Below, piece after piece: positions 34,243 to 46,860 of a DNA stretch of 64,000 nt. Every line of letters starts with the position of its first letter. Position 1 is the first letter of the stretch. Position numbers and translations under genes: made by a program. Below the pieces are notes generated by a model. The model was not told the origin of the DNA. It worked only from the letters and a program-made list of their open reading frames with translations, and ran no database searches. Origin of the DNA: Escherichia phage HildyBeyeler; sequence record MZ501074. One strand, given 5' to 3'.

Positions 34243-35064
34243 ATGGGTAAATTACAAAAACAAATACTACCATATATAGATTATATCCGAGAAATTATAG
34301 AGTATAATCCCTATACTGGTAAATTATTCTATAAGCCTAATAAATATAAGAATAAAACTTGGCATACTTTATATGCTGGGAGAGAAATATGTAGTAAGAA
34401 CTCTGATGGGTACATCAGAGTTAGTTTGCTCTTAGATAATAAACCCACAATTATTTATGGACACCGAATAGCGTGGCTCCTTCACTATGGGGAGGAACCA
34501 CCTGCTATGATTGATCATATAAATACTATACCGTGGGATAATAGAATTATTAACCTAAGAGAGACAAATTTTAAGTTAAACAGACTTAATACTAACAAAA
34601 CGGTAGGTGTAGAGCTGCTGCCAGAAGGATTTGTGTACAGCATTACATTAGGTGAAAAGTTTTTTGTATCCCCCGGCTTCCCCACTTTCGAACAAGCTAA
34701 AGTGGAAAGAGAAAAACTAGTAAATGGTTTATGTAATGCAGAAATTGGGAAGCAGACCAATATTCTAATAGACGATGTTAGAGATTTACCTGAAATGTCC
34801 ATTATTTGTCGTACAGTTATAGGTGCGCTGGAACTATCAGATGTGTTTAGTTTCACAGGATCCTATTTATTTATGGACTCAGATTTAGGAGATTCAGAGG
34901 TACAAGGAAAAGATTTATTAGATCATATACTATTATTAGGTCAAAGACCCCTAAAAGTGATTCTAGTAACATCTAATCCTGTTGACGCAGAGTACATGAG
35001 AGGTACTCTTACGTCTTATGGATACCGAGAAAATCCCAATAGATTAGAATATGATCTATTTTAA
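34243..35064 (+). CDS. HNH homing endonuclease (273 aa)
   Basis: HNH motif IDHINTIPWDNRIINLRETN; own promoter. Confidence 0.8.
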   Translation: MGKLQKQILPYIDYIREIIEYNPYTGKLFYKPNKYKNKTWHTLYAGREICSKNSDGYIRVSLLLDNKPTIIYGHRIAWLLHYGEEPPAMIDHINTIPWDNRIINLRETNFKLNRLNTNKTVGVELLPEGFVYSITLGEKFFVSPGFPTFEQAKVEREKLVNGLCNAEIGKQTNILIDDVRDLPEMSIICRTVIGALELSDVFSFTGSYLFMDSDLGDSEVQGKDLLDHILLLGQRPLKVILVTSNPVDAEYMRGTLTSYGYRENPNRLEYDLF

Positions 35065-35594: not shown

Positions 35595-35765
35595 ATGAAA
35601 AACTTGATCGTCATTGGTGTTAACACTCGCGGTATTCGTACTACGAAAACTGTTAAAACTTCTAACGTTGCTGAGATCACTACGAACCCTAAAAAGTTTG
35701 ATTTCGCCAAAGTCTCAGCAGTTATGACAGAACAATCTTTTAACCAAGCGTTAGGAATGAAATAA
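35595..35765 (+). CDS. hypothetical small protein (56 aa)
   Basis: Promoter and GAGAGGAAG RBS; ATG overlaps next gene (TAATG); below the ORF-track cutoff. Confidence 0.5.
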   Translation: MKNLIVIGVNTRGIRTTKTVKTSNVAEITTNPKKFDFAKVSAVMTEQSFNQALGMK

Positions 35766-36208
35766 TGGGAGAGAATATTTTAGATGTTTTGCGTAGAGCT
35801 TTGCAGGATTCTAAGTTTAATGGTTCTGATAAAGAAGTCGCTAAAAGCTATCAGACCATAATCGGGGATCTTCAGCGTATTGATAAAGATTTCATCACTT
35901 CTGAACAATTTGTGTCTTATCTCAAAGCTCAACTAAAAAGCATTAACCAGATGAAAGCTAAACTTCATGGTCAAGATCTTGATAGTTATAGCTTGCAGTC
36001 CGCTCAGTATGAATACATTCTAAATAAGTGGTTGCAGGAGTATCTGCCTCCTCAGTTATCTGATACTGAGATTCGTAAATACTTTGCAGAATTAGTTAAG
36101 CTAAACCCTGGAATTACAAAAGGTATGCTGATGAAAGCGATTAAGGAAGAATTTCCTGGGCGTTATGATGGTGGTACTGCTGCTCAGATTGCTGGCGAAT
36201 TTAATTAA
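35765..36208 (+). CDS. GatB/YqeY-domain-like protein (147 aa)
   Basis: C-terminal KGMLMKAIKEEFPGRYDGGTAAQIAGEF resembles the YqeY domain. Confidence 0.45.
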   Translation: MGENILDVLRRALQDSKFNGSDKEVAKSYQTIIGDLQRIDKDFITSEQFVSYLKAQLKSINQMKAKLHGQDLDSYSLQSAQYEYILNKWLQEYLPPQLSDTEIRKYFAELVKLNPGITKGMLMKAIKEEFPGRYDGGTAAQIAGEFN

Positions 36209-36245: not shown

Positions 36246-36468
36246 ATATTAATAAATTAGAGAACAGCGGGCCGATTACGCTGAGTGCAGAATCCAAACC
36301 GGAGTGCATTGAATAGAGTCGGTGGGTTAGTTGTAAAACTAGTACACAGTGGGCGGCAATCCCGGTTAGTGGCTAGAACGTGTAAAATGGGGCGTCTGAA
36401 ACCTCTCCCCTAAACTCTTCTCTAGTTTATAAATAGTGGGGTGTGGAAATCACTTATGTAGTAACACT

Positions 36469-36540
36469 GCCGATCTAGTATAAACGGTATTATCAAGCCG
36501 TAACTGGTGGAAGATGTAGGTTCGAATCCTACGATCGGTA
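36469..36540 (+). other. tRNA-like minihelix element (7-bp acceptor-like stem plus T-arm; no anticodon arm found)
   Basis: GCCGATC at 36469-75 pairs with GATCGGT at 36533-39; GTAGG-TTCGAAT-CCTAC T-arm at 36516-32; interior does not fold into D and anticodon arms. Confidence 0.3.
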
Positions 36541-37041
36541 AGAACTGGATAACTGGTGCTTTTAACGTAAAAGCTTCCGAGGTTAGTTGCGCACTGCCTA
36601 AACCACGCGGTAGTTGGTTCCAGACTAACCAACCAGTCTGCTGAATAGTTTTATTACGATTTAACTATGTCCAGGCTAAAGAAGAACTTTAGAAGGTATT
36701 CTAGGTGGTGAAGTTTTTCCTCCATATCGGAGTAGTTTTTCAAGCTACCAACAAAGTGGGAAATGCTGACATGAGAGATGTCACTAATGGTGCACAATAG
36801 CACAGGTAATTCGCGATAACTCCTGTTGAGTAGCAGCAAAAGGCGGGAAGTCATGACCCCAAGCCTAACCGAGTCCTCAATATACCGCAGGACATAACCA
36901 CTAAGTCACCCTGACTTAAACTGGAAAATAATAGACGTTACTGTATTTTGTCTTGAAATACTTAATGAGTGAGACTTATGACTCTCCCGGTATCGTCTGT
37001 ATTTTTAAGAGTTTTTACGAGAGTTCTTAAAAATACTTAAA

Positions 37042-39097: not shown

Positions 39098-39116
39098 AAT
39101 TAAATAAGGACAACTA

Positions 39117-39305
39117 ATGGAATTATTCATAGTTTCTGTTAAATTTGCACAAGATAGAGAACGTTCGGATGAGTTTAAACAAGGGTACAGACTAGTAAAG
39201 GCTACATCTGAACTCCATGCTATGGACAAAGTAGTAGACTATATGTATAATGTAGAAGATGTTTACTACGTCAATGCTTTAGAAGCCTCAAAAGTAATTG
39301 ACTAA
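39117..39305 (+). CDS. hypothetical protein (62 aa)
   Basis: AAGGA RBS. Confidence 0.45.
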   Translation: MELFIVSVKFAQDRERSDEFKQGYRLVKATSELHAMDKVVDYMYNVEDVYYVNALEASKVID

Positions 39306-39314
39306 GGAGACTAT

Positions 39315-39500
39315 ATGTCTAAGTTTCAAGAACTCAAGCAAGAGCTAGAAGAATGTGCCTGCCCTGAGTGTAGAGGAATTGGTGAAAGTTCTGATGCAGA
39401 AGCAGTGGATACTTTTTGCAATATCTGGGTTTGCCCAAATTGCAAGGGTACAGGTATTAATCCTAACTGTGGTATTTCTCTAGATATTGAAAGAGGATAA
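39315..39500 (+). CDS. small zinc-ribbon protein (61 aa)
   Basis: Two CxxC pairs (CACPEC, CPNCKG); AAGGAG RBS. Confidence 0.5.
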   Translation: MSKFQELKQELEECACPECRGIGESSDAEAVDTFCNIWVCPNCKGTGINPNCGISLDIERG

Positions 39501-39505
39501 TACCT

Positions 39506-39595
39506 GTGAAACTAAAAGATTATTATATTGGTTGGTTTGTGGGACTAGTAGTAGGATTTTCACTAGGCTATAATATGTATCAACTAATAAACTGA
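39506..39595 (+). CDS. small hydrophobic peptide (29 aa), GTG start
   Basis: AGAGGA RBS 7 nt before the GTG; predicted single TM helix; ends 7 nt before a tRNA. Confidence 0.35.
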   Translation: MKLKDYYIGWFVGLVVGFSLGYNMYQLIN

Positions 39596-39601
39596 TTACA
39601 T

Positions 39602-39678
39602 GGGGGTGTAATCGAATTGGCATAGGTACTGTACTTAAAATTCAGGTTTTGTGGGTTCGAATCCCACCACCCCTACCA
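39602..39678 (+). tRNA. tRNA with anticodon UAA (Leu-type) but short variable arm, CCA encoded
   Basis: Acceptor GGGGGTG/CACCCCT, anticodon arm CTGTA-CUUAAAA-TTCAG, T-arm GTGGG-TTCGAAT-CCCAC, A73. Confidence 0.55.
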
Positions 39679-39693
39679 AATTAAGGAAATAAG

Positions 39694-39861
39694 ATGTATA
39701 GACATCCACCTCCGCCAACACGTCGTTCTAGAGAAGTTATTCTCATGGAATTGACGAAAAACTTCAAGGCAACCCTTGAGGATAGAGACTTAGGTACAGA
39801 TGAAGACGTTGATTTTATCTGTAAACTATTAAAAATGAAACTGGAGAAGCAACATGGCTAA
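39694..39861 (+). CDS. hypothetical small protein (55 aa)
   Basis: AAGGAAATAAG RBS; stop overlaps the next start; below the ORF-track cutoff. Confidence 0.45.
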   Translation: MYRHPPPPTRRSREVILMELTKNFKATLEDRDLGTDEDVDFICKLLKMKLEKQHG

Positions 39862-40060
39862 TCCTGAAATTACCATGCAACGACTCATGACTAAAGGTAT
39901 GATATCCGAGGCAGGCATTGAACAAGAAGTAAAAAGTTATTACGAACAGATTAAGGGTATTATAGACTCTGCTAAAAACACAGGAGAAAAAGAACACGGT
40001 GCAGCAATTATGGCTATAACTCTTATTAGTCTAGACTTGGCAGAAGAATCTGGAGTTTAG
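39854..40060 (+). CDS. hypothetical protein (68 aa)
   Basis: ORF track. Confidence 0.45.
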   Translation: MANPEITMQRLMTKGMISEAGIEQEVKSYYEQIKGIIDSAKNTGEKEHGAAIMAITLISLDLAEESGV

Positions 40061-40090
40061 CTCCTCCAAACAGAATTTTTAAAAATGTAC

Positions 40091-40120
40091 TTGCCTTTTG
40101 CTTTAAATTTCTGGTATAAT
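40091..40120 (+). promoter_or_regulatory. sigma70 promoter (TTGCCT, 18 bp, TATAAT)
   Basis: Hexamers plus AGTTATATAAATTGATGAAGGAG box. Confidence 0.6.
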
Positions 40121-40150
40121 AGTTATATAAATTGATGAAGGAGTTAACGA

Positions 40151-40426
40151 ATGCAAAATCGTGTTATAGCAACTGGTATTGAAAGTGCAATCTGTAAATC
40201 CTGGGAAGGCTGGGAAGGTGAGATTGAATGGCTTTATTTCTACGATGTAGAACTTCTGCCGGAAATTAAAGCTAAATGTGTTGAAGCTGGCATGGCTCCA
40301 GATGCAAAAGCTGATATTGATATTTCAATGTCTGAACTTAAAGGTCGTGTAGTTACCGTTAGTAATGAGGGCGAAGAAGTTTTTGAACTTCCGTTCTCCT
40401 TAGCTGTCACTCCTAAGTTCGACTAA
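40151..40426 (+). CDS. hypothetical protein (91 aa)
   Basis: Promoter 40091-40120 and GAAGGAG RBS. Confidence 0.5.
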   Translation: MQNRVIATGIESAICKSWEGWEGEIEWLYFYDVELLPEIKAKCVEAGMAPDAKADIDISMSELKGRVVTVSNEGEEVFELPFSLAVTPKFD

Positions 40427-40434
40427 CTAATACA

Positions 40435-40473
40435 GCACTGAGCAAGTCCTTTAAAATTTGACTTGCTCAGTGC
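40435..40473 (+). repeat. perfect 14-bp inverted repeat (GCACTGAGCAAGTC / GACTTGCTCAGTGC) with an 11-nt spacer
   Basis: Arms at 40435-48 and 40460-73 are exact reverse complements; the 3' arm contains the -35 of promoter 40463-91. Confidence 0.8.
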
Positions 40474-40491
40474 CTTAAAACTTGGTATAAT
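40463..40491 (+). promoter_or_regulatory. sigma70 promoter (TTGCTC, 17 bp, TATAAT); -35 lies in the 3' arm of a 14-bp palindrome
   Basis: Hexamers at 40463-68 and 40486-91. Confidence 0.6.
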
Positions 40492-40625
40492 AGTTATCTA
40501 ATTTGGAAAGTTCTTTTTAAGGTAGTTCTTACTTTAGCAGAGTAAACTTTCGGCAGATGGTGGCAGCCACTTTACCGATATTCCATAGTCAGTGCCGCAA
40601 ACACTGGCTACCTTAAAGAGAATTT

Positions 40626-40713
40626 GGGCGTTTATTCCGTAAGTGGTAGCGGAGGGGATTGTAAATCCCTGGTCATTGCGACTCGAGTGGTTCGACTCCA
40701 TTAACGCCCACCA
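40626..40713 (+). tRNA. tRNA-Tyr (anticodon GUA), long variable arm, CCA encoded
   Basis: Acceptor GGGCGTT/AACGCCC, anticodon arm GGGGA-UUGUAAA-TCCCT, extra arm, TTCGACT T-loop. Confidence 0.65.
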
Positions 40714-40721
40714 AATTTAAT

Positions 40722-40796
40722 GCACCTATCGTCTAATGGCTAGGACATCAGGATTTCAATCTGAGAATCGGAGTTCAATTCTCCGTGGGTGTACCA
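40722..40796 (+). tRNA. tRNA-Glu (anticodon UUC), CCA encoded
   Basis: Acceptor GCACCTA/TGGGTGT, anticodon arm TCAGG-AUUUCAA-TCTGA, T-arm CGGAG-TTCAATT-CTCCG. Confidence 0.7.
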
Positions 40797-40804
40797 ATTT
40801 CTGC

Positions 40805-40881
40805 ATTCCTAGAGTGTTACTGGACAGCATGTCGGTCTCCAAAACCGTACGGTCTAGGTTCGAGTCCTAGTAGGTTTGCCA
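40805..40881 (+). tRNA. probable tRNA-Trp (anticodon CCA), CCA encoded; 5' boundary uncertain
   Basis: Anticodon arm TCGGT-CUCCAAA-ACCGT, T-arm CTAGG-TTCGAGT-CCTAG, 3' G-CCA; acceptor has U-U mismatches. Confidence 0.5.
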
Positions 40882-40887
40882 AAATTT

Positions 40888-40962
40888 GCACCTTTAGCTG
40901 AGATGGATTAGCGCTTGCCTGAAGAGCTTGAGAGGTTGGATCGTTACCAACGGGGTGCACCA
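40888..40962 (+). tRNA. possible tRNA-Phe (anticodon GAA), CCA encoded; non-canonical T-loop
   Basis: Acceptor GCACCTT/GGGGTGC and D-stem GCTG/TAGC are clean; anticodon stem has two U-U mismatches; T-loop AUCGUUA. Confidence 0.4.
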
Positions 40963-40978
40963 AATTGAAGGAGCTGCT

Positions 40979-41252
40979 GATGCATCCTGAAAACTTCTTT
41001 ATTTACTGCGCGGATAAGTCGCTGAAACGTAGAATTAACAAAGTCTATCATTATCGTGCTAGTCAACAGCCTTATGTATACGCTTTTGACGGTGATCACA
41101 TTCCACTAGAACAATTATCTTGTGATTACATGATATTGAAGAACTTTGACGAGACGAAGATCTCAAGCGTTTATAATCGACAGAATCCATTAACGTGGAA
41201 ATATAAGAAGAAAAAGAAAGGCATCAAATTCTTAAAAAATATAGTTGCTTAG
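40979..41252 (+). CDS. hypothetical protein (~90 aa)
   Basis: GAAGGAG RBS 5 nt before the ATG at 40979; the track ORF starts at an upstream TTG. Confidence 0.45.
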
Positions 41253-41273
41253 TTTCCAAAAGTTCTGTATAAT
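41245..41273 (+). promoter_or_regulatory. sigma70 promoter (TTGCTT, 17 bp, TATAAT)
   Basis: Hexamers plus AATTACATAAATTGAACTGGAG box; precedes tRNA-Cys. Confidence 0.65.
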
Positions 41274-41321
41274 AATTACATAAATTGAACTGGAGAAGCA
41301 ACATGATAGAACAAGATAAAT

Positions 41322-41397
41322 CGACCGTTGGCTGAATGGCTTAGGCGAAGGATTGCAAATCCTTTTTATGTGAGTTCAAATCTCATGCGGTCGTCCA
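41322..41397 (+). tRNA. tRNA-Cys (anticodon GCA), CCA encoded
   Basis: Acceptor CGACCGT/GCGGTCG, anticodon arm AAGGA-UUGCAAA-TCCTT, T-loop TTCAAAT. Confidence 0.75.
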
Positions 41398-41399
41398 AT

Positions 41400-41540
41400 T
41401 TGCTGAAAGAATTGTTAAATCAATTCAGGCACGCGTAGGAACACTGTCTCCGTAATTGAAAGATGAGGCACGGTTTGGAGAGGTATGCCGCTACACGCTA
41501 CGGTGCTAACTCCGTCTAGGTGAAAATCCTAGTCAGCAAT
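41400..41540 (+). ncRNA. candidate structured RNA (141 nt) with tRNA-like termini
   Basis: TTGCTGA at 41400-06 pairs perfectly with TCAGCAA at 41533-39; CTAGG-TGAAAAT-CCTAG hairpin sits just before the 3' strand; D-arm-like GAAT/ATTC near the 5' end; no ORF. Confidence 0.35.
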
Positions 41541-41549
41541 GTAAATTTA

Positions 41550-41635
41550 GGGTCGTTGGCTGAACGGTTTAAGCGCCGGACTGTTAATCCGTATCCGCAA
41601 GGATAAAGTAGGTTCAACTCCTACACGGCCCGCCA
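41550..41635 (+). tRNA. tRNA with anticodon GUU (Asn-type) but a long variable arm, CCA encoded
   Basis: Acceptor GGGTCGT/ACGGCCC, 3-bp D-stem, anticodon loop CU-GUU-AA, 15-nt extra arm with GCAA loop, T-arm GTAGG-TTCAACT-CCTAC, G73. Confidence 0.55.
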
Positions 41636-41737
41636 AATTCTGTGTAGAGTTAAGTAAACCGGTAGCCAACCAGCTATCATTGCTGACATCGAATTCAGCC
41701 ACAGATACCATTTTCATTAATAACTAAGGAAACAAGC

Positions 41738-41923
41738 ATGTCCAAGAATGTGATTGCGCAGCTAGAAGTTCATCGTGATAGCACTATCAACAATATTAAG
41801 TGCCGACAAAAAGATATTGAAGCTCAAAAGGCTGATCTTTTAATGAGTATTCGAGAGCTTAATGTACGAAAAGAGTTTCTTAAAGAACTTAATGCAGCTA
41901 TTGAAAAACTCAAAGCTGAGTAA
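41738..41923 (+). CDS. hypothetical coiled-coil protein (61 aa)
   Basis: AAGGAAACAAG RBS. Confidence 0.45.
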   Translation: MSKNVIAQLEVHRDSTINNIKCRQKDIEAQKADLLMSIRELNVRKEFLKELNAAIEKLKAE

Positions 41924-41932
41924 ATGAATTAT

Positions 41933-42009
41933 GCGACCGGGGCTGGCTTGGTAATGGTACTCCCCTGTCACGGGAGGGAATGTGGGTTCAAATCCCATCG
42001 GTCGCGCCA
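41933..42009 (+). tRNA. tRNA-Asp (anticodon GUC), CCA encoded
   Basis: Acceptor GCGACCG/CGGTCGC, anticodon arm CTCCC-CUGUCAC-GGGAG, T-loop TTCAAAT. Confidence 0.7.
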
Positions 42010-42026
42010 GATAAGGTAGGTTAGCT

Positions 42027-42185
42027 ATGGAACGTAGGGAGTTTACTCCAGAAGAGATAGAGCAGATAAAAGAATCTGCTATGAAAAATGCTAGAATATC
42101 TCTGTCACTGGAAGGTATCATTATTAGTGATGTAAACTTTGAAAAAATCAAAGCCATAGCTGATGAACTGGAAAAAGTAATTTAA
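42027..42185 (+). CDS. hypothetical small protein (52 aa) between tRNA-Asp and tRNA-Lys
   Basis: AAGGTAGG RBS; sequence MERREFTPEEIEQIKESAMKNARISLSLEG...; below the ORF-track cutoff. Confidence 0.4.
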   Translation: MERREFTPEEIEQIKESAMKNARISLSLEGIIISDVNFEKIKAIADELEKVI

Positions 42186-42186
42186 T

Positions 42187-42262
42187 ACATCCATAGCTCA
42201 ATGGTTAGAGCTACCGCCTCTTAAGCGGAGGGTTCTAGGTTCAAGTCCTAGTGGGTGTACCA
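42187..42262 (+). tRNA. tRNA-Lys (anticodon CUU), CCA encoded
   Basis: Acceptor ACATCCA/TGGGTGT, D-stem GCTC/GAGC, anticodon loop CU-CUU-AA, T-arm CTAGG-TTCAAGT-CCTAG. Confidence 0.7.
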
Positions 42263-42292
42263 AACAAACTAAACTAGCACGAGAAATATGCT

Positions 42293-42640
42293 ATGATTAA
42301 TGCTAAAGAAGAATTGTTACTTGCCCTAAAGAATACTAATTCTGAAGTTAAGTGTATTAAGATAGAATTCGGTTATTATGGGGACAAAGAAGTTTTGGTA
42401 TTACCCATAGGTTACACAGAAAAAGATATTGAAGATTTTCTAAATAATCTAGACTTTAAATATGATTCTGGTTTCGGTGGACAATTGCTTTATGGTAACG
42501 TATGGTTTACTGATGGAACTTGGTTAGAACGTGGTGAATATGATGGTTCTGAATGGTGGGAATATAAGACTACACCAGCAATTCCAGAGGAATGCCGAAC
42601 AATTAATGGTGAAGTAGATCGTACTTTACTATTAAATTAA
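42293..42640 (+). CDS. hypothetical protein (115 aa)
   Basis: ORF track. Confidence 0.5.
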   Translation: MINAKEELLLALKNTNSEVKCIKIEFGYYGDKEVLVLPIGYTEKDIEDFLNNLDFKYDSGFGGQLLYGNVWFTDGTWLERGEYDGSEWWEYKTTPAIPEECRTINGEVDRTLLLN

Positions 42641-42762
42641 CAAAATCTCAGTGCAGAACACGGAGCTAGCAATTCGGAAATGCTGACTCATGATAAGCTG
42701 CCTATGTACTTGCGAAGCGGTCGTGTCCAAGACTCGGACTCTTGCACTGAAAACAATCAAAC

Positions 42763-42883
42763 ATTCTAGCGTGGTTGATGGGGAAACCAGCTTGGCTAGG
42801 GCAGAAGCTCGTTCGATTCGAGTGAAAGAATGGTTCTCGTAAGTCCGCACAAGTGATAACAGGTTCGAGTCCTGTCTAGAATG
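42763..42883 (+). ncRNA. candidate structured RNA (121 nt) with tRNA-like termini
   Basis: ATTCTAG at 42763-69 pairs perfectly with CTAGAAT at 42876-82; T-arm-like ACAGG-TTCGAGT-CCTGT before the 3' strand; internal GCTCG-TTCGATT-CGAGT hairpin. Confidence 0.35.
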
Positions 42884-42897
42884 ACACTATAAAGTTT

Positions 42898-43012
42898 ACT
42901 TATTATGTAGGTTCCGATAGACCGGCGGGTCTATTCTGGCATTTAAGAGAGGTCTCGCAAACTTCTTTGTCAGCCGTGGGGTTGATAGCCCCCAGGTGGC
43001 CTACACAATAAG
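42898..43012 (+). repeat. 14-bp inverted repeat (13 of 14 pairs) enclosing about 87 nt of hairpin-rich sequence
   Basis: ACTTATTATGTAGG at 42898-911 pairs with CCTACACAATAAGT at 42999-43012; internal hairpins ATAGACC/GGTCTAT and GGGG/CCCC. Confidence 0.65.
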
Positions 43013-43032
43013 TAAATTTATGAAAAATGTAG

Positions 43033-43061
43033 TTGCTATTTAGCTTAATTCTCTGTATAAT
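43033..43061 (+). promoter_or_regulatory. sigma70 promoter (TTGCTA, 17 bp, TATAAT)
   Basis: Precedes HNH gene 43094-43669. Confidence 0.65.
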
Positions 43062-43093
43062 ATATTCTATAAAGTGAAGAGAAGGAAAGCAAA

Positions 43094-43669
43094 ATGGAAG
43101 GATTTAAACCAATACCCGAGTATCCAGAATACTTAGTATCTGAGAAGGGAGAAATATACTCCACTATCAGTAATAAATATTTAAAACCTACCATAAACGG
43201 GAGCGGCTATTACCACTTTGCAGTACGTGAAGATACTAATGAGTATAGATGGCTTCTGCTGCACAGAGTTATATGCAGGGTTTATGGTAATCTCCCCTCT
43301 TTAGATAGTGAAATGGAAGTAGATCATAATGATTGTAATAGGCTTAATATACTCCCTAGTAATTTAGTTGCCAGAGAGAAGAAAGATCATTACGATAAAA
43401 CTACACTGGAGAGAGGAAAAACTATAGGGGGCACTAGATGTATAGTCTGTAATAAGAGGATACACTCTGGTCGAGAATACTGCATAAATTGCAGTCCAGT
43501 TAAACAGACTAAATCCCCAGAGATTACCGCAGAACAGATAGAATATTGGGTATCAAAGTATTCCTGGACTAGAGCTGCAAAAGAGTTAAATTTATCTGAT
43601 AATGGTCTACGAAAACGGTATACTAAATTAACAGGTAAATCCCCAAAAGAAATTAAAAAATCAGGGTAA
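43094..43669 (+). CDS. HNH homing endonuclease (191 aa)
   Basis: HNH motif EVDHNDCNRLNILPSNL and zinc-ribbon CIVCNKRIHSGREYCINC; last 8 nt overlap the 5' end of tRNA-Pro. Confidence 0.75.
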   Translation: MEGFKPIPEYPEYLVSEKGEIYSTISNKYLKPTINGSGYYHFAVREDTNEYRWLLLHRVICRVYGNLPSLDSEMEVDHNDCNRLNILPSNLVAREKKDHYDKTTLERGKTIGGTRCIVCNKRIHSGREYCINCSPVKQTKSPEITAEQIEYWVSKYSWTRAAKELNLSDNGLRKRYTKLTGKSPKEIKKSG

Positions 43670-43739
43670 GGGCGATAAGGTACGCCACCTCGTTTGGGGC
43701 GAGGAAATCTTTAGAGTTCGAATCTCTATACCCTGACCA
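43662..43739 (+). tRNA. tRNA-Pro (anticodon UGG), CCA encoded
   Basis: Acceptor CAGGGTA/TACCCTG, D-stem GGCG/CGCC, anticodon arm CCTCG-UUUGGGG-CGAGG, T-loop TTCGAAT. Confidence 0.75.
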
Positions 43740-43745
43740 AACAAT

Positions 43746-43821
43746 TGCGGGTGGGAGGCATAGAGTTCTTCTTAGTCTCATAAGCTAAGTAAGTCCAGGG
43801 CAGTACTGGAACCCGCTACCA
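43746..43821 (+). tRNA. tRNA with anticodon CAU (Met/fMet/Ile2-type), non-canonical T-loop, CCA encoded
   Basis: Anticodon arm TTAGT-CUCAUAA-GCTAA, T-arm TCCAG-GGCAGTA-CTGGA, acceptor 6 bp with a U1-U72 mismatch. Confidence 0.45.
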
Positions 43822-43839
43822 ATTTCAAGAAAAACGCAG

Positions 43840-43868
43840 TTGCTTAATGCTTAATTTCTTGTTATAAT
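43840..43868 (+). promoter_or_regulatory. sigma70 promoter (TTGCTT, 17 bp, TATAAT)
   Basis: Hexamers plus ATTTATATAAATTGATG box; followed by about 330 nt with no ORF. Confidence 0.65.
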
Positions 43869-44204
43869 ATTTATATAAATTGATGCGAAAATAGCTGCCT
43901 AGATACCAGGTGTATGACGTCTACACTAGCAGAGCTACCGAAAAAGAGATCCCCAGGATAAACGTCGTAGCAAAATTAGTCTGGTATCCATCAATTTAGT
44001 TCACTAAGGTATTAGCTCGACCTAGGACTGGCTGCCAAAAAGCACGATCCCTACGATTCGGGAGAAGTTCTAGATTAGTCCACTAGATTCAGCGGCAACT
44101 GAATAGTGTATTGGGTTTGCGAGATGACGCAGTTCCTTCCGCTCGAAGCGAAGGTGCTGTAGTTACGCCGAGCTAATAGCCTTAGTAAACTAGAAGGAAT
44201 ATCT

Positions 44205-44468
44205 ATGTTTGATCTGAAAGATATGGCTAAAAAGTTAATGTCGCAACGCTATCAACAAAGAACACTCCATAAACGAGTTTCCGATATGAAAAAACGTTGC
44301 AATAATGCTAAATATTATAATAGTCTTAATAAACTATCTGATGCAGATCTTGTTAAAACTGAAGCAATATATAATCACTTAGCAGTAGAGTATGATATAG
44401 TGAATAAAGATATTGCTAGGCTAGAAGCTCAGATTGTAGCAACTGTACTTGACATGTACAGGGAATAA
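44205..44468 (+). CDS. hypothetical protein (87 aa)
   Basis: GAAGGA RBS. Confidence 0.5.
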   Translation: MFDLKDMAKKLMSQRYQQRTLHKRVSDMKKRCNNAKYYNSLNKLSDADLVKTEAIYNHLAVEYDIVNKDIARLEAQIVATVLDMYRE

Positions 44469-44479
44469 ATAAAGAATTT

Positions 44480-44558
44480 GGGGGATGGGTCTGCTGGGAG
44501 TGGACACCTCGCTTGCACCGAGGACATCAGAACGATTCGAATTCGTTATCCTCCACCA
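44480..44558 (+). tRNA. tRNA-Ala (anticodon UGC), CCA encoded
   Basis: Acceptor GGGGGAT/ATCCTCC with G3-U70, anticodon arm CCTCG-CUUGCAC-CGAGG, T-loop TTCGAAT. Confidence 0.7.
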
Positions 44559-44563
44559 AATAC

Positions 44564-44640
44564 GCGTGATTGATGGAATTGGCATACATACCGTCCTTAG
44601 AAGTCGGGTTTTGAGGGTTCGAATCCCTTGTCACGCACCA
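44564..44640 (+). tRNA. tRNA with anticodon UAG (Leu-type) but short variable arm, CCA encoded
   Basis: Acceptor GCGTGAT/GTCACGC, anticodon loop CU-UAG-AA, T-arm GAGGG-TTCGAAT-CCCTT, A73. Confidence 0.55.
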
Positions 44641-44764
44641 AATTTGATGGTCAGAGTAAATTAAACCTACTATCTCGGTTGAGCTGTTTTAATGGGTTCG
44701 AATCCCAGCGAGGCGTAACTGCCTGGTGTGATAGAGGCATCATTCCACTAATATTGGAAAACTA

Positions 44765-44995
44765 ATGAAACGAAAATTAAAAAAATCTTATATAATTAAG
44801 ATAAATAAGCTAAGAAGTAGGGCAAAAGGATGGCCACTTCGGATATTAATTGCGGATAACCATATTAGATACCATGCGGAACAACGTCATTATAAACAGT
44901 GGGAGTCATACTGCCGCTCAAAAGCAGGTCGTTTAGATGGATCTTATGAGTTTCTATTTGGTAAGAAGCCTACTAGAGTAGCTTTAGGTAATTAA
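44765..44995 (+). CDS. hypothetical basic protein (76 aa)
   Basis: ORF track. Confidence 0.4.
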   Translation: MKRKLKKSYIIKINKLRSRAKGWPLRILIADNHIRYHAEQRHYKQWESYCRSKAGRLDGSYEFLFGKKPTRVALGN

Positions 44996-45000
44996 TACTT

Positions 45001-45091
45001 GGAAGAGCAAATCGAATTGGCGACGAAAACCGCTTGGAAAGTGGCTGACCGGTAAAACGGCTTGAGAGTTCAAATCTCTCCTCTTCCGCCA
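45001..45091 (+). tRNA. tRNA-Ser (anticodon GGA), long variable arm, CCA encoded
   Basis: Acceptor GGAAGAG/CTCTTCC, anticodon loop UU-GGA-AA, 18-nt extra arm, T-arm GAGAG-TTCAAAT-CTCTC, G73. Confidence 0.65.
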
Positions 45092-45103
45092 AACAATTTA
45101 TAT

Positions 45104-45198
45104 GGTAGGTCAATCCAACGGCTGGCGCTGGACTCCGACTTGAAATCGGTTGATCGTAGTGATACGGTGTAAGGGTTCGATCCCCTTACCTACCTCCA
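45104..45198 (+). tRNA. tRNA-Ser (anticodon UGA), long variable arm, CCA encoded
   Basis: Acceptor GGTAGGT/ACCTACC, anticodon arm CCGA-CUUGAAA-TCGG, long extra arm, T-arm AAGGG-TTCGATC-CCCTT. Confidence 0.6.
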
Positions 45199-45450
45199 AA
45201 TCTTGAAGTATGCCGGAATCGGTAGACGGGGCTGCCTAAAAGGTTTATAGGGAACATCCACTCCCTGCAACATACCTCATAAAGCGGCTGAGATAAATGG
45301 TCTATCTCGTGAAGGTTCAAGTCCTTCTGCTTCTTGATACATCTATGGCTCAAAGTGTAACGGTGCTATTTGATGCTCTTGGTAAGACTTCCCCGACATG
45401 CGTTCGGGAGTAAGCTGCTAAGACTAGAGTAGAAGAGTTTCTGAGAGCCG

Positions 45451-45568
45451 CCACAATTGAAAATTCGTACTCGTCTTGAGCTGCGTGCAATAGGAGATAA
45501 CTTGATTAGTATTCTAGAACATGCTAATTGAGGATGGTTTCGCTAACCCTGCGAGTTTTCAATTGTGG
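45451..45568 (+). repeat. 13-bp perfect inverted repeat (CCACAATTGAAAA / TTTTCAATTGTGG) enclosing about 92 nt
   Basis: Arms at 45451-63 and 45556-68; the 3' arm runs into the acceptor stem of tRNA-His. Confidence 0.75.
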
Positions 45569-45641
45569 CTATATCATAATTGGTTAATGATCCTGATTGT
45601 GAATCAGGCCTATGTGGATTCGAATTCCACTAGCCACCCCA
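45565..45641 (+). tRNA. tRNA-His (anticodon GUG), CCA encoded
   Basis: Acceptor GTGGCTA/TAGCCAC, D-stem TCAT/ATGA, anticodon arm CCTGA-UUGUGAA-TCAGG, T-loop TTCGAAT. Confidence 0.75.
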
Positions 45642-45666
45642 AATTAACTTAAATAGGAAATAAAAT

Positions 45667-45864
45667 ATGGCTGATTTCTGCAAACAATGCTCCATTGATA
45701 TGTGGGGCAGAGATACTGGTGATCTTTCTGGTTTGATTACAGAAGCCGAAGTCAAAGAAGGTTATGGTGCAGTTGTGGTTTGCGAAGGATGCGGAGTTAT
45801 TCGAGTAGATCATGAAGGCAAACGTTTAGAAGAACCGGAAAATTTAGGAGAAACAAATGAGTAA
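45667..45864 (+). CDS. hypothetical Cys-containing protein (65 aa)
   Basis: ATAGGAAATAAA RBS. Confidence 0.45.
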   Translation: MADFCKQCSIDMWGRDTGDLSGLITEAEVKEGYGAVVVCEGCGVIRVDHEGKRLEEPENLGETNE

Positions 45865-46093
45865 TGCTTTAATTAGTGAAATTATGTTAACACGTCTTGC
45901 AGAACTGCAAACTCTTCGAGATGAATCTCAGAATAACTTATCCTACCATAAACAGATGGTAGATACTCTTACTACTCGTATTGAAACTTACGAGCGTGAT
46001 ATTGCAGCATTACAAGCTCTTTTCTCCGTATCAGCACCAGATACGTTAGAACAGCCTGCTGTATCTCAGCCAGTAGAGACAGCATCTAGTTAA
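45857..46093 (+). CDS. hypothetical protein (78 aa)
   Basis: GGAG RBS; coupled to the upstream ORF. Confidence 0.45.
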   Translation: MSNALISEIMLTRLAELQTLRDESQNNLSYHKQMVDTLTTRIETYERDIAALQALFSVSAPDTLEQPAVSQPVETASS

Positions 46094-46102
46094 TAGCATT
46101 TT

Positions 46103-46178
46103 TGGAGTGTAGATCAATTGGCAGATCGTCGGCCTCTGACTCCGAAGGTTCCTGGTTCGATCCCAGGCACTCCAGCCA
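46103..46178 (+). tRNA. tRNA-Gln (anticodon CUG), CCA encoded
   Basis: Acceptor TGGAGTG/CACTCCA, D-stem GATC/GATC, anticodon loop CU-CUG-AC, T-arm CCTGG-TTCGATC-CCAGG. Confidence 0.7.
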
Positions 46179-46184
46179 AATAAT

Positions 46185-46260
46185 TGGAGAGTAGTGTAAC
46201 GGTTAGCACAACGGCCTTTGACTCCGTTAATGGTAGGTTCGATTCCTCCTTCTCCAGCCA
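46185..46260 (+). tRNA. tRNA-Gln (anticodon UUG), CCA encoded
   Basis: Acceptor TGGAGAG/TTCTCCA, D-stem GTGT/GCAC, anticodon loop CU-UUG-AC, T-loop TTCGATT. Confidence 0.7.
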
Positions 46261-46267
46261 AAATAAT

Positions 46268-46342
46268 GCGTGATTAGTTCAGTGGCTAGAACAACTGGCT
46301 TCCAACCAGTAGACACGAGTTCGACTCTCGTATCCCGCACCA
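46268..46342 (+). tRNA. tRNA-Gly (anticodon UCC), CCA encoded
   Basis: Acceptor GCGTGAT/ATCCCGC (one mismatch), D-stem GTTC/GAAC, anticodon arm ACTGG-CUUCCAA-CCAGT, T-arm ACGAG-TTCGACT-CTCGT. Confidence 0.7.
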
Positions 46343-46356
46343 AATAAGGAATCTCT

Positions 46357-46608
46357 ATGCACGTTTTTGAGTTTCGTAATAAAAGTACCAATAAACGAGT
46401 TATTGTTATTGGGGAAACATATCGAGCATATGAACAAACTGACGGCTCTGTTATCTTGAATGATGAGAAAGGGGGTTTTAGCTTTTATCCAGAAGAACCT
46501 TATGAAGAGTTTCGAAAACAATTTAACCTAGACTGGAGAAAGCATTTAAACACTGTTGCTTCATCTGTAGTACTGCCAACTACCAGTACTGTACTATCTA
46601 ATGGCTGA
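46357..46608 (+). CDS. hypothetical protein (83 aa)
   Basis: AAGGAAT RBS. Confidence 0.5.
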   Translation: MHVFEFRNKSTNKRVIVIGETYRAYEQTDGSVILNDEKGGFSFYPEEPYEEFRKQFNLDWRKHLNTVASSVVLPTTSTVLSNG

Positions 46609-46765
46609 TAACCTAAAAGTCAAGATCGACAAACAAAAGAAACGTGTAGAAGTAGAGATTGGTGAAGAACGTGTAGCCTTCACCTTTGAATTTCTACAAC
46701 AAATGGCAATGACAGTTATGACTGATAAGTCTCCTGTTATTGAAAAAGAAATCCCGTTGAAATAA
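46601..46765 (+). CDS. hypothetical small protein (54 aa)
   Basis: ATG overlaps the upstream stop (ATGGCTGA); hairpin follows; below the ORF-track cutoff. Confidence 0.4.
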   Translation: MADNLKVKIDKQKKRVEVEIGEERVAFTFEFLQQMAMTVMTDKSPVIEKEIPLK

Positions 46766-46773
46766 CGGGTTCT

Positions 46774-46860
46774 GCTGGGTTGGCAGAATGGTTGAATGCA
46801 CCTGATTTGTAATCAGGAGGAGTAATCCCGTTGCAGGTTCGAATCCTGTGCCCAGCACCA
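46774..46860 (+). tRNA. tRNA with anticodon UGU (Thr-type) but a long variable arm, CCA encoded
   Basis: Acceptor GCTGGGT/GCCCAGC, 3-bp D-stem, anticodon arm CCTGA-UUUGUAA-TCAGG, 15-nt extra arm with GTAA loop, T-arm GCAGG-TTCGAAT-CCTGT, A73. Confidence 0.55.

What the first reader, a model, noticed from the sequence alone, without database searches (positions are those of the whole stretch)
39602..46860. Four tRNAs pair an anticodon with the wrong structural class
By hand folding, two tRNAs with Leu-type anticodons (UAA at 39602-39678, UAG at 44564-44640) have short 5-nt variable loops. Two tRNAs with Asn-type and Thr-type anticodons (GUU at 41550-41635, UGU at 46774-46860) carry 15-nt extra arms with tetraloop-like GCAA or GTAA, as expected for class II tRNAs (Leu, Ser, Tyr). 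All four have clean acceptor stems, T-arms and encoded CCA. If correct, either identity rules are unusual in this phage or these tRNAs are charged with an unexpected amino acid.
Basis: partly seen in the sequence, partly recalled or inferred. Interest (0 to 1): 0.6.

Follow-up and report, generated by a model that had tools for sequence, protein, structure and literature searches.

The report
Phage tRNAs with swapped structural class
This T5-like phage carries two leucine tRNAs that lack the usual long extra arm and an asparagine and a threonine tRNA that have gained one; the swap is real, common in phages and hardly described, but the tRNAs most likely still carry the amino acid their anticodon predicts.

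Summary
Leu-UAA and Leu-UAG have 5-nt variable loops. Asn-GUU and Thr-UGU have 15-nt variable regions that form GNRA-capped mini-hairpins.

The window is a T5-like phage. T5 itself has conventional alleles at the same loci, so these are cassette-like replacements. They are not oddities. Long-arm Asn matches 596 phage records, class I Leu-UAG 567 and long-arm Thr about 100. The pattern matched in 116 IMG/VR contigs but only 25 times in 185,579 cellular genomes. Helices, including the Asn extra arm, covary.

The elements that E. coli LeuRS, AsnRS and ThrRS are reported to read are all present, and none lies in the variable arm. GenBank notes record identical (Thr, Leu-UAG) or near-identical (Leu-UAA) tRNAs from phages 5 and BF23 as working amber suppressors.

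Best reading: functional tRNAs charged according to their anticodon. Escape from shape-reading defence tRNases is a plausible but untested driver. Partial mischarging, especially Ser on the Asn tRNA, is not excluded. No aminoacylation data exist.

The parts
39602..39678 (+). tRNA-Leu(UAA), class I architecture (77 nt, encoded CCA, A73, 3-bp D stem, D loop GAAUUGGCAUA)
   Evidence: ARAGORN; Rfam tRNA 54.6 bits. One base differs from phage 5 tRNAL2, which GenBank notes as an effective amber suppressor.
39646..39650 (+). 5-nt variable loop GUUUU of Leu(UAA). U48 can pair with A15 (Levitt pair).
41550..41635 (+). tRNA-Asn(GUU) with a long variable arm (86 nt, G73, encoded CCA). The anticodon arm is 94% identical to E. 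coli asnT.
   Evidence: ARAGORN; Rfam 54.7 bits. 596 phage records match.
41593..41607 (+). Extra arm of Asn: AUCC-GCAA-GGAU stem-loop followed by AAA
   Evidence: The hairpin appears in the MFE fold. Family covariation of the three pairs next to the GNRA loop.
44564..44640 (+). tRNA-Leu(UAG), class I architecture (77 nt, A73, encoded CCA, D loop GAAUUGGCAUA)
   Evidence: ARAGORN; Rfam 47.5 bits. Identical to BF23 and phage 5 tRNAL1, noted as an effective amber suppressor.
44608..44612 (+). 5-nt variable loop GUUUU of Leu(UAG)
46774..46860 (+). tRNA-Thr(UGU) with a long variable arm (87 nt, G1-C72, C2-G71, A73, encoded CCA)
   Evidence: ARAGORN; Rfam 58.9 bits. Identical to phage 5 tRNAT, noted as an effective amber suppressor.
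46818..46832 (+). Extra arm of Thr: A + GGA-GUAA-UCC + CGUU
   Evidence: The hairpin appears in the MFE fold. A GNRA mini-hairpin is present in 7 of 10 family members.

Best explanation
All four are working phage tRNAs that decode according to their anticodons (Leu UUA/UUG, Leu CUA/CUG, Asn AAC/AAU, Thr ACA/ACG) and are charged by the host's LeuRS, AsnRS and ThrRS. The class swap is tolerated because none of these three enzymes is reported to use the variable arm as an identity element. The Leu tRNAs keep A73, U8-A14, A15-U48, G18G19 and A20a in a tRNA-Leu-type D arm. The Asn tRNA keeps GUU plus G73. The Thr tRNA keeps G1-C72, C2-G71, G35 and U36.

These alleles are alternative cassettes in the mosaic tRNA region of T5-like phages, which is rich in homing-endonuclease genes. 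T5 itself has the conventional versions.

What is shown: the structures, their conservation and covariation, the presence of the identity elements, and in-vivo function of identical or near-identical tRNAs as amber suppressors. What is inferred: which synthetase charges them.

A further inference (about 35-40% likely) is that remodelling of the variable arm is selected because it changes the tRNA shape seen by host defence tRNases. AriB of PARIS cuts host Lys-UUU, Thr-UGU and Asn-GUU. [quoted passage not shown]
For: 1. Two independent tRNA finders agree on the cloverleaves and anticodons.

2. Breadth. Long-arm Asn matches 596 phage records, including T5-like, T4-like Klebsiella/Enterobacter/Erwinia phages and Vequintavirus. 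Class I Leu-UAG matches 567 records, including Felixounavirus. Long-arm Thr matches 98-113 records. Distant Demerecviridae genera (Epseptimavirus, Priunavirus, Novosibvirus) all carry long-arm Asn plus class I Leu.

3. Covariation. In 74 distinct long-arm Asn tRNAs, the three pairs next to the GNRA loop are paired in 67, 73 and 55 of 74, and 0 of 2000 partner shuffles reach these values. RNAalifold recovers the cloverleaf plus extra arm with 19 of 25 pairs compensated. The class I Leu consensus has 19 of 20 pairs compensated and an invariant A73 in 14 of 14.

4. Identity signatures across families. Class I Leu has A73 in 36 of 42 and a 3-bp D stem in 33 of 42. Long-arm Asn has G73 in 77 of 85, and only 15 of 85 start with GG, against 65 of 69 true Ser tRNAs. 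Long-arm Thr starts G1C2 in 10 of 10, with invariant G1-C72 and C2-G71 and a variable discriminator (A, C or U). That fits the ThrRS rules and not those of LeuRS or SerRS.

5. The identity rules are taken from review PMC9976931.

6. The window's D arms and anticodon arms resemble the host Leu, Asn and Thr tRNAs fetched from MG1655.

7. With the anticodon loop masked, the nearest neighbours of each tRNA are tRNAs with the same anticodon from other phages.

8. GenBank notes record identical (Thr, Leu-UAG) and one-base-different (Leu-UAA) tRNAs as 'effective amber suppressors' after the anticodon was changed to CUA.

9. In the window's ORFs, UUA is 27% and CUA 21% of Leu codons, ACA is 26% of Thr codons, and Asn is 5.3% of all codons. 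Missense decoding there would be costly.

10. For the defence idea: AriB's targets are Lys-UUU, Thr-UGU and Asn-GUU (PMC12409363). [quoted passage not shown]
Against: No aminoacylation or tRNA-seq data exist for these alleles.

E. coli LeuRS did not charge the type I tRNA-Leu(CAA) of Streptomyces coelicolor and is described as charging only type II tRNA-Leu (PMC6614811).

The window's Asn tRNA also carries Ser-type features: G1-C72, G2-C71, G73, C11-G24 and a D loop GAACGGUUUAA close to E. coli serT's GAGCGGUUGAA.

The phage 5 long-arm Asn and Thr tRNAs work as suppressors without their native anticodon, so some synthetase charges the body independently of the anticodon. BF23's class I Thr does the same, so this is not specific to the long arm.

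The PARIS rescue experiments used T5's class I alleles, not these.

The window's Thr and Asn keep the host-like AriB site U36AAUC|A/C41, so resistance is unproven.

Long arms also occur on Cys, Trp, Glu, Asp, Met and Ile tRNAs, which are not known AriB targets.

Single-sequence MFE folds do not give the cloverleaf for the two Leu tRNAs (z = -1.0 and -1.4). That is common for unmodified tRNA sequences.
Confidence: 0.7

Rival explanations
1. Dual or switched identity. The long arm, with G73 and G1-C72/G2-C71 in the Asn tRNA or A73 in the Thr tRNA, lets SerRS (or LeuRS) charge these tRNAs. Ser or Leu would then be inserted, partly or wholly, at Asn or Thr codons.
For: The window's Asn tRNA has G1-C72, G2-C71, G73, C11-G24, a Ser-like D loop and a 4-bp extra arm only one pair shorter than that of E. 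coli serT. The phage 5 long-arm Asn and Thr tRNAs act as amber suppressors with a CUA anticodon, whereas T5's class I Asn and Thr do not. Nematode nev-tRNAs are a precedent for V-arm tRNAs that carry class I anticodons.
Against: Across the long-arm Asn family only 15 of 85 start with GG, against 65 of 69 Ser tRNAs, and many have Asn-type UCC...GGA acceptor stems. The arm is followed by 3-4 unpaired nucleotides, against one in serT. The variable regions are 13-16 nt, against 18-23 nt in the same phages' Ser tRNAs. The long-arm Thr family has a variable discriminator, which fits neither Leu (A73) nor Ser (G73). Its G18G19 spacing is not of the Leu type. Asn makes up 5.3% of the phage's codons. 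BF23's class I Thr is also a good suppressor, and CUA suppressors are often charged by GlnRS or LysRS (own knowledge).
Confidence: 0.13
2. They act mainly outside decoding, as decoys or competitive inhibitors that soak up host tRNA-cleaving defence nucleases. Charging would be secondary.
For: The PARIS authors raise the possibility that overexpressed viral tRNAs inhibit AriB by competition. Overexpressed tRNA-Tyr neutralises PtuAB toxicity. The window's Thr and Asn keep the host-like AriB cleavage-site sequence.
Against: Complete identity sets, an encoded CCA, conserved anticodons, a match to the phage's codon usage, and suppressor activity all point to real decoding. The idea does not explain the class I Leu tRNAs.
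Confidence: 0.08
3. Neutral drift or decay. The tRNA region of T5 is dispensable in the laboratory, so these could be degenerating or non-functional genes whose odd shape has no consequence.
For: T5 deletion variants that lack 11 to 17 of the 24 tRNA genes still infect. Some T5 tRNAs fail as suppressors. Several tRNA-like 'stable RNAs' of unknown function lie in the same region.
Against: The structures are conserved with compensatory changes across hundreds of phages from several families. Identity nucleotides are conserved. Suppressor activity is recorded.
Confidence: 0.05
4. Folding artefact. The true anticodon loop lies elsewhere and the architectures are conventional.
For: None was found. 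Single-sequence MFE folds are imperfect.
Against: ARAGORN, Infernal and RNAalifold on homologues all give the same arms.
Confidence: 0.01

Closest known systems
tRNA genes of Salmonella phage 5 (GenBank AJ604531) and phage BF23 (NC_042564)
   Same: Thr and Leu-UAG are identical in sequence, Leu-UAA differs by one base, and Asn is an 83-nt orthologue with the same acceptor stem. They are annotated tRNA-Thr, Asn and Leu, with notes on conversion to amber suppressors.
   Different: The records do not mention the structural-class mismatch. The inserted amino acids are not given.
Phage T5 tRNA-Thr(UGU), Asn(GUU) and Leu(UAG) (NC_005859)
   Same: Same loci, same anticodons, and flanks 88-96% identical. 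The T5 Thr, Asn and Lys tRNAs counter PARIS.
   Different: The T5 alleles are conventional: Thr 75 nt and Asn 78 nt are class I, Leu 85 nt is class II. T5 Thr and Asn differ from the host tRNAs at the AriB site. The window's alleles keep the site and change the architecture instead.
Type I tRNA-Leu(CAA) of Streptomyces coelicolor, and animal mitochondrial tRNA-Leu
   Same: Leu tRNAs with a short variable loop that are genuinely leucylated (PMC6614811).
   Different: Those are charged by their own adapted LeuRS, and E. coli LeuRS failed on the Streptomyces tRNA. The phage tRNAs keep the E. coli-type tRNA-Leu D arm and must rely on an enterobacterial LeuRS.
Engineered E. coli tRNA-Leu variants lacking the long variable arm
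   Same: They show that E. coli LeuRS needs A73 and D/T-loop tertiary contacts, not the arm (review PMC9976931).
   Different: They are laboratory constructs. Here the armless form is natural and widespread.
[quoted passage not shown]
   Same: A long variable arm combined with anticodons of class I amino acids (PMC4033280).
   Different: They are eukaryotic and have Leu/Ser-type bodies that are charged independently of the anticodon (own knowledge). The phage tRNAs keep the identity set that matches their anticodon.
allo-tRNAs and selC* tRNA-Cys (Mukai et al. 2017, as reviewed in PMC7609411)
   Same: Bacterial tRNAs with long variable arms and non-Ser anticodons.
   Different: Those have tRNA-Sec-like 8/4 or 9/3 acceptor/T geometry and longer anticodon stems. 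These have the canonical 7/5 geometry.
tRNA-Tyr of the T5-like phage SP15, with a remodelled variable loop
   Same: A change to the variable arm in a T5-like phage tRNA that decides escape from a defence tRNase, PtuAB.
   Different: Tyr stays class II and only the loop length changes. Here the class itself changes, and no nuclease link has been shown.

Membership tests
tRNA (Rfam RF00005) | Cloverleaf that scores above the family's gathering threshold, with a T loop and an acceptor stem | tested here: met
   47.5-58.9 bits against a threshold of 29, full model length. ARAGORN agrees.
Class II (type II) tRNA | Variable region of 10 or more nucleotides that forms a stem-loop | tested here: met
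   Asn and Thr have 15-nt regions with 4-bp and 3-bp stems and GNRA loops. The Asn arm covaries across the family. The two Leu tRNAs do not meet this, with 5-nt loops.
Class II (type II) tRNA | In bacteria, restricted to the isoacceptors Leu, Ser, Tyr and Sec | tested here: not met
   The anticodons are GUU and UGU.
Bacterial tRNA-Leu (E. coli identity set) | A73, U8-A14, A15-U48, G18G19 and A20a in a 3-bp D stem with an 11-nt D loop | tested here: met
   Both Leu tRNAs have A73, U8, the D loop GAAUUGGCAUA (host: GAAUCGGUAGA and AAAUUGGUAGA) and U48.
Bacterial tRNA-Leu (E. coli identity set) | Long variable arm (characteristic of the family, reported not to be required by E. coli LeuRS) | tested here: not met
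   5-nt loop. There are 42 distinct class I Leu tRNAs in the viral loci.
Bacterial tRNA-Leu (E. coli identity set) | Actual leucylation by enterobacterial LeuRS | not testable with these tools
   Indirect only: amber-suppressor notes. A caution: E. coli LeuRS failed on a Streptomyces type I tRNA-Leu.
tRNA-Asn (E. coli identity set) | Anticodon G34 U35 U36 plus discriminator G73 | tested here: met
   GUU and G73. G73 in 77 of 85 long-arm Asn tRNAs. Rule.
tRNA-Thr (E. coli identity set) | G1-C72, C2-G71, G35 and U36; the discriminator is not decisive | tested here: met
   All present. G1-C72 and C2-G71 are invariant in 9 of 9 family members while pairs 3-7 covary. Rule.
tRNA-Ser (E. coli identity set) | Long arm in the Ser-type orientation, G73, G1-C72, G2-C71 and C11-G24 | tested here: inconclusive
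   Asn has G73, G1-C72, G2-C71 and C11-G24. Its arm is shorter and has 3 unpaired nucleotides on the 3' side, against 1 in serT. Thr has A73 and C2-G71, so it does not meet the set.
nev-tRNA | Nematode nuclear genes; Leu/Ser-type body carrying a class I anticodon | tested here: not met
   Phage origin. The body carries the cognate identity set.
allo-tRNA / selC* tRNA-Cys | 8/4 or 9/3 acceptor/T-stem geometry with a long anticodon stem | tested here: not met
   7-bp acceptor stem, 5-bp T stem and 5-bp anticodon stem.
Phage tRNAs that evade defence tRNases (T5 Lys/Thr/Asn against PARIS; SP15/T5 Tyr against PtuAB) | Shown resistance to the nuclease and rescue of infection | not tested
   The published data concern other alleles. 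The window's Thr and Asn keep the AriB site sequence.

The most novel reading that the evidence does not exclude
The long-arm Asn and/or Thr tRNAs have a dual identity. Host SerRS (or LeuRS) recognises the class II-type core and arm, so that during infection a fraction of Asn or Thr codons is read as Ser or Leu. That would be phage-programmed missense decoding, a prokaryotic-virus counterpart of nematode nev-tRNAs. The amber-suppressor activity of the CUA derivatives and the Ser-like features of the T5-type Asn tRNA leave this open.
Probability: 0.1. Interest if true: 0.9.

Novelty: new variant of a known kind. Interest (0 to 1): 0.6.

Why it matters
Textbook tRNA biology ties the long variable arm to Leu, Ser and (in bacteria) Tyr. 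A 2019 study states that almost all bacterial tRNA-Leu are type II and that E. coli LeuRS charges only type II tRNA-Leu.

Here, natural armless Leu tRNAs and armed Asn and Thr tRNAs sit in hundreds of phages of E. coli, Salmonella and Klebsiella, and in many uncultured viral contigs and tRNA arrays. The sequences have been in GenBank since 2004. Neither of the two reviews I could search mentions them: the review of non-canonical tRNAs says nothing about phages or viruses, and the identity review cites only T5 tRNA-Phe.

If they are charged as their anticodons predict, they are ready-made natural experiments on what LeuRS, AsnRS and ThrRS really read. They are also possible scaffolds for tRNA engineering.

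If the arm changes protect against shape-reading defence nucleases (PARIS AriB, Septu/retron PtuAB), class switching would be a new and general counter-defence tactic. The observation that AriB's targets include exactly Thr-UGU and Asn-GUU makes this directly testable.

Tried and rejected
1. Alternative folds. ARAGORN, Infernal and RNAalifold agree on the arms, so this was rejected.

2. Recent anticodon switch from a Ser, Leu or Tyr tRNA. Arm-by-arm and whole-body comparisons with host, T5 and window tRNAs gave about 0.7 identity to many isotypes and no clear parent. With the anticodon loop masked, the nearest neighbours have the same anticodon. Many long-arm Asn tRNAs look like ordinary tRNA-Asn with a hairpin inserted. 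No support.

3. Best-hairpin length against shuffled variable regions. This was barely discriminating (3.3 against 2.6 bp). I replaced it with a covariation test anchored on the GNRA loop.

4. Using the PARIS rescue experiments as proof of function. Rejected, because T5's alleles are class I.

5. Treating amber-suppressor activity as proof that the long arm gives anticodon-independent identity. Weakened, because BF23's class I Thr is also an effective suppressor.

6. Tracing BASEL phage Bas33 (HildyBeyeler), which is rescued from PARIS by T5 tRNA-Lys alone, to see whether its own Thr is the long-arm allele. Its genome is not in the collection. Its nearest relative SSP1 has the long-arm Thr. 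Bas34 has a class I Asn.

7. The bacterial Schlafen paper says nothing about type II specificity in bacteria.

8. Ten literature searches found no description of the class mismatch in phages.

Full report
**Check of the observation.** ARAGORN finds 21 tRNA genes in the window. Its bracket structures give a 5-nt variable loop (GUUUU) for both Leu tRNAs. For Asn they give ((((vvvv))))sss, which is AUCC-GCAA-GGAU plus AAA. For Thr they give s(((vvvv)))ssss, which is A, GGA-GUAA-UCC, CGUU.

Rfam's tRNA covariance model matches all four end to end at 47.5-58.9 bits, against a gathering score of 29. It uses the same anticodon arms and treats the extra bases as an insertion in the variable region.

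Single-sequence MFE folding recovers the acceptor stems and both extra-arm hairpins. As is usual for unmodified tRNA sequences, it does not recover every arm. All four have clean 7-bp acceptor stems, 5-bp T stems and an encoded CCA. No second, conventional Leu, Asn or Thr tRNA is present among the roughly 25 tRNAs that ARAGORN and Rfam find together.

**What the window is, and how it compares with T5.** The region is 98.6% identical to Salmonella phage Tennessee and matches 608 T5-like records. T5 itself (NC_005859) has conventional genes at the same positions: Thr(UGU) of 75 nt and Asn(GUU) of 78 nt with short variable loops, Leu(UAG) of 85 nt with a long arm, and no Leu(UAA).

A BLAST comparison shows flanks that are 88-96% identical right up to the Thr gene. 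The junction on the Asn side lies inside the 3' end of the gene, at position 41611. Leu(UAA) and two small ORFs sit where T5 has the HNH endonuclease gene hegA. These are alternative cassettes in a mosaic region rich in homing-endonuclease genes.

**Distribution.**
- The long-arm Asn matches 596 phage records. These include T5-like phages (83-86 nt), T4-like Klebsiella, Enterobacter and Erwinia phages (85 nt) and Vequintavirus.
- The long-arm Thr matches 98-113 records, mostly T5-like, plus Aeromonas phage PX29 at 77% identity.
- The class I Leu(UAG) matches 567 records, including Felixounavirus and Vequintavirus.
- Eps7, Providencia phage PSTCR5 (Priunavirus) and Proteus phage VTCCBPA139 (Novosibvirus) all carry long-arm Asn and class I Leu. 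In Eps7 the Leu(UAG) has an intermediate 8-nt loop.
- A pattern for the Asn anticodon arm followed by a long gap and then the T arm matched 116 IMG/VR contigs, up to 476 kb long.
- The same pattern matched only 25 stretches in 185,579 species genomes, none enterobacterial. Only about half of those yielded a long-arm Asn by ARAGORN, and seven of those lie in arrays of 7-36 tRNAs.
- ARAGORN on the viral loci gave 85 distinct long-arm Asn tRNAs, 10 long-arm Thr(UGU) and 42 class I Leu. It also found long-arm Cys, Trp, Glu, Asp, Met, Ile(UAU) and Lys. This sample is biased, because the loci were chosen for containing a long-arm Asn.

**Structural conservation.** In the 74 long-arm Asn tRNAs that have a GNRA motif in the variable region, the three pairs flanking the loop are paired in 67, 73 and 55 of 74. 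Up to six pair types are used, and no partner shuffle out of 2000 reaches these values. By a stricter best-hairpin criterion, 50 of 85 have a GNRA tetraloop, and the arm is usually followed by 3-4 unpaired nucleotides.

RNAalifold on 16 diverse long-arm Asn tRNAs returns the cloverleaf plus the extra arm, with compensatory changes in 19 of 25 pairs. For 14 class I Leu tRNAs it returns a cloverleaf with a 3-bp D stem, a 5-nt variable loop and an invariant ACCA end, with 19 of 20 pairs compensated. For nine long-arm Thr tRNAs it returns the cloverleaf with invariant G1-C72 and C2-G71, but the short arm is not in the consensus. Covariation support for the Thr arm is therefore weaker; 7 of 10 have a GNRA mini-hairpin.

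**Which amino acid?** The identity rules come from the Giege and Eriani review.
- E. coli LeuRS needs A73, U8-A14, A15-U48, G18G19 and A20a. The long arm is dispensable.
- Asn identity is the GUU anticodon plus G73.
- Thr identity is acceptor-stem pairs plus the anticodon, with the discriminator unimportant.
- Ser identity rests on the long arm plus G73 and G1-C72/G2-C71.

Host comparators were fetched from MG1655. Both Leu tRNAs have A73, U8 and the D loop GAAUUGGCAUA, against the host's GAAUCGGUAGA and AAAUUGGUAGA. They also have U48. The Asn tRNA has GUU, G73 and an anticodon arm 94% identical to asnT. The Thr tRNA has G1-C72, C2-G71 and UGU.

The family statistics agree.
- Class I Leu has A73 in 36 of 42.
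- Long-arm Asn has G73 in 77 of 85, and only 15 of 85 start with GG, against 65 of 69 true Ser tRNAs.
- Long-arm Thr starts with GC in 10 of 10, with discriminators A, C or U. That fits Thr and not Leu or Ser.

With anticodon loops masked, the nearest neighbours of each tRNA have the same anticodon. The phage uses UUA for 27% and CUA for 21% of Leu codons, ACA for 26% of Thr codons, and Asn for 5.3% of all codons. From my own knowledge, UUA and CUA are much rarer in E. coli.

**Experimental hints.** GenBank AJ604531 (phage 5) and NC_042564 (BF23), from the laboratory that sequenced the T5 tRNA region, carry notes on these genes. The 87-nt tRNAT is identical to the window's Thr and becomes an 'effective amber suppressor' when its anticodon is changed to CUA. 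So does tRNAL1, which is identical to the window's Leu(UAG), and tRNAL2, which differs from the window's Leu(UAA) by one base. The 83-nt long-arm tRNAN becomes a suppressor.

These bodies are therefore expressed, processed, charged and used on the ribosome in E. coli. The notes do not say which amino acid is inserted. T5's class I Thr and Asn are noted as not convertible, but BF23's class I Thr is convertible. The phenotype therefore does not track the arm.

**Cautions.** E. coli LeuRS did not charge the type I tRNA-Leu(CAA) of Streptomyces coelicolor. That tRNA follows different rules; for example, A73 is not an identity element there. The T5-type long-arm Asn has several Ser-type features, so some serylation cannot be excluded. 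Against that, its variable region is 13-16 nt, compared with 18-23 nt in the same phages' Ser tRNAs, and its arm geometry differs from that of serT.

**Why the swap?** This part is inference. AriB of PARIS cleaves host Lys(UUU), Thr(UGU) and Asn(GUU) between positions 40 and 41, and also contacts the D loop. The T5 versions of these tRNAs rescue infection. [quoted passage not shown]

The only two long-arm misfits in the window are Thr(UGU) and Asn(GUU). They keep the host-like U36AAUC|A/C41 sequence, which T5's alleles have mutated. That suggests escape by architecture rather than by sequence. The link is post hoc and untested, and it does not explain long arms on Cys, Trp and other tRNAs.

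**What is known.** The sequences have been deposited and annotated as tRNA-Thr, Asn and Leu since 2004. I found no description of the class mismatch. The review of non-canonical tRNAs never mentions phages or viruses. The PARIS paper never uses the word 'variable'. The paper on phage tRNA escape through anticodon-loop mutations does not discuss variable arms.

The closest analogues are the type I tRNA-Leu of Streptomyces and of mitochondria, nematode nev-tRNAs, and allo-tRNAs and selC* tRNA-Cys.

**Verdict.** It is a new variant of tRNA architecture. These are most likely ordinary decoders (confidence 0.7), with an open and testable link to anti-defence and a small chance of genuine mischarging.

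Noticed in passing
window 36468-36541: ARAGORN calls a 74-nt 'tRNA-Ser(ACU)' without CCA (Rfam tRNA, 39 bits). It lies inside the stretch that is 92% identical to T5's 'RNAX', a stable RNA of unknown function. The T5 copy is called the same way.
   Followed up: partly
window about 45200-45345: Counterpart of T5 'RNA1', a tRNA-like stable RNA (93% identical). By eye, it has a tRNA-Leu-type D arm (GCCGGAAUCGGUAGACGG) and a T arm, with about 35 extra nucleotides between them. It could be a disrupted or unusual class II tRNA-Leu relative.
   Followed up: partly
window 41636-41710: The counterpart of T5 'RNA3', a putative tRNA-like RNA, lies directly after the long-arm Asn gene. The homology with T5 resumes inside the 3' end of the Asn gene, at 41611.
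   Followed up: partly
window 35765-36208 (+): A 147-aa ORF just upstream of the tRNA cluster has a weak Pfam YqeY (GatB-tail-like) match: 25.2 bits, below the cut-off of 27. By position it appears to be the gene that T5, Eps7 and PSTCR5 annotate as 'tRNA amidotransferase'. Its function is unknown.
   Followed up: partly
window 34243-35064 (+): A 273-aa ORF combines an HNH_3 endonuclease domain with a cREC_REC domain (cyclic-phosphate processing receiver). Aravind's group links this receiver domain to RNA-repair and conflict systems (own knowledge).
   Followed up: no
window 42187-42262: The only Lys tRNA found in the window has the anticodon CUU. T5 carries Lys(UUU), the tRNA that counters PARIS. 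This phage therefore lacks the key anti-PARIS tRNA but has the long-arm Thr(UGU) and Asn(GUU).
   Followed up: partly
window 39107-39671 and 43316-43659: Leu(UAA) and two small ORFs occupy the place of T5's HNH gene hegA. An ORF with 69% DNA identity to T5 hegD ends right at tRNA-Pro. This fits exchange of tRNA cassettes driven by homing endonucleases.
   Followed up: partly
L123 15484-15564 (Eps7); also L154 and L158 (BASEL Bas28 and Bas27): Leu(UAG) is 81 nt here. In Eps7 the variable loop is the 8-nt CUUCGGGU. That is an intermediate between T5's 13-nt arm and the window's 5-nt loop.
   Followed up: partly
IMG/VR loci L004, L012, L031, L033-L037, L053, L056, L059, L078, L093, L098 and others: The contigs that carry long-arm Asn also carry long-arm Cys, Trp, Glu, Asp, Met, Ile(UAU) and occasionally Lys(UUU) tRNAs. 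Most have GNRA-capped mini-hairpins. No Arg tRNA (0 of 87) has one.
   Followed up: partly
L129, L130, L133 (Verrucosispora and Micromonospora genomes: two complete chromosomes, one draft contig): Arrays of 32-36 tRNA genes within 8 kb contain a 90-nt long-arm Asn and class I Leu(CAA/CAG/GAG). They may be relevant to the type I tRNA-Leu described in Streptomyces.
   Followed up: no
L157 17605-17681 (BASEL Bas34 SelmaRatti); one search hit H136 (Shigella phage SSP1): Bas34, which needed all three T5 tRNAs for rescue from PARIS, has a 77-nt class I Asn. The genome of Bas33 (HildyBeyeler), rescued by tRNA-Lys alone, could not be fetched. Its nearest relative SSP1 carries the long-arm Thr.
   Followed up: partly
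L001 (T5) annotation compared with L155 and L156: The T5 RefSeq notes say 'replacement of the anticodon with 5'-CAU-3''. The phage 5 and BF23 records say CUA. The T5 wording looks like a typing error for the amber anticodon.
   Followed up: no
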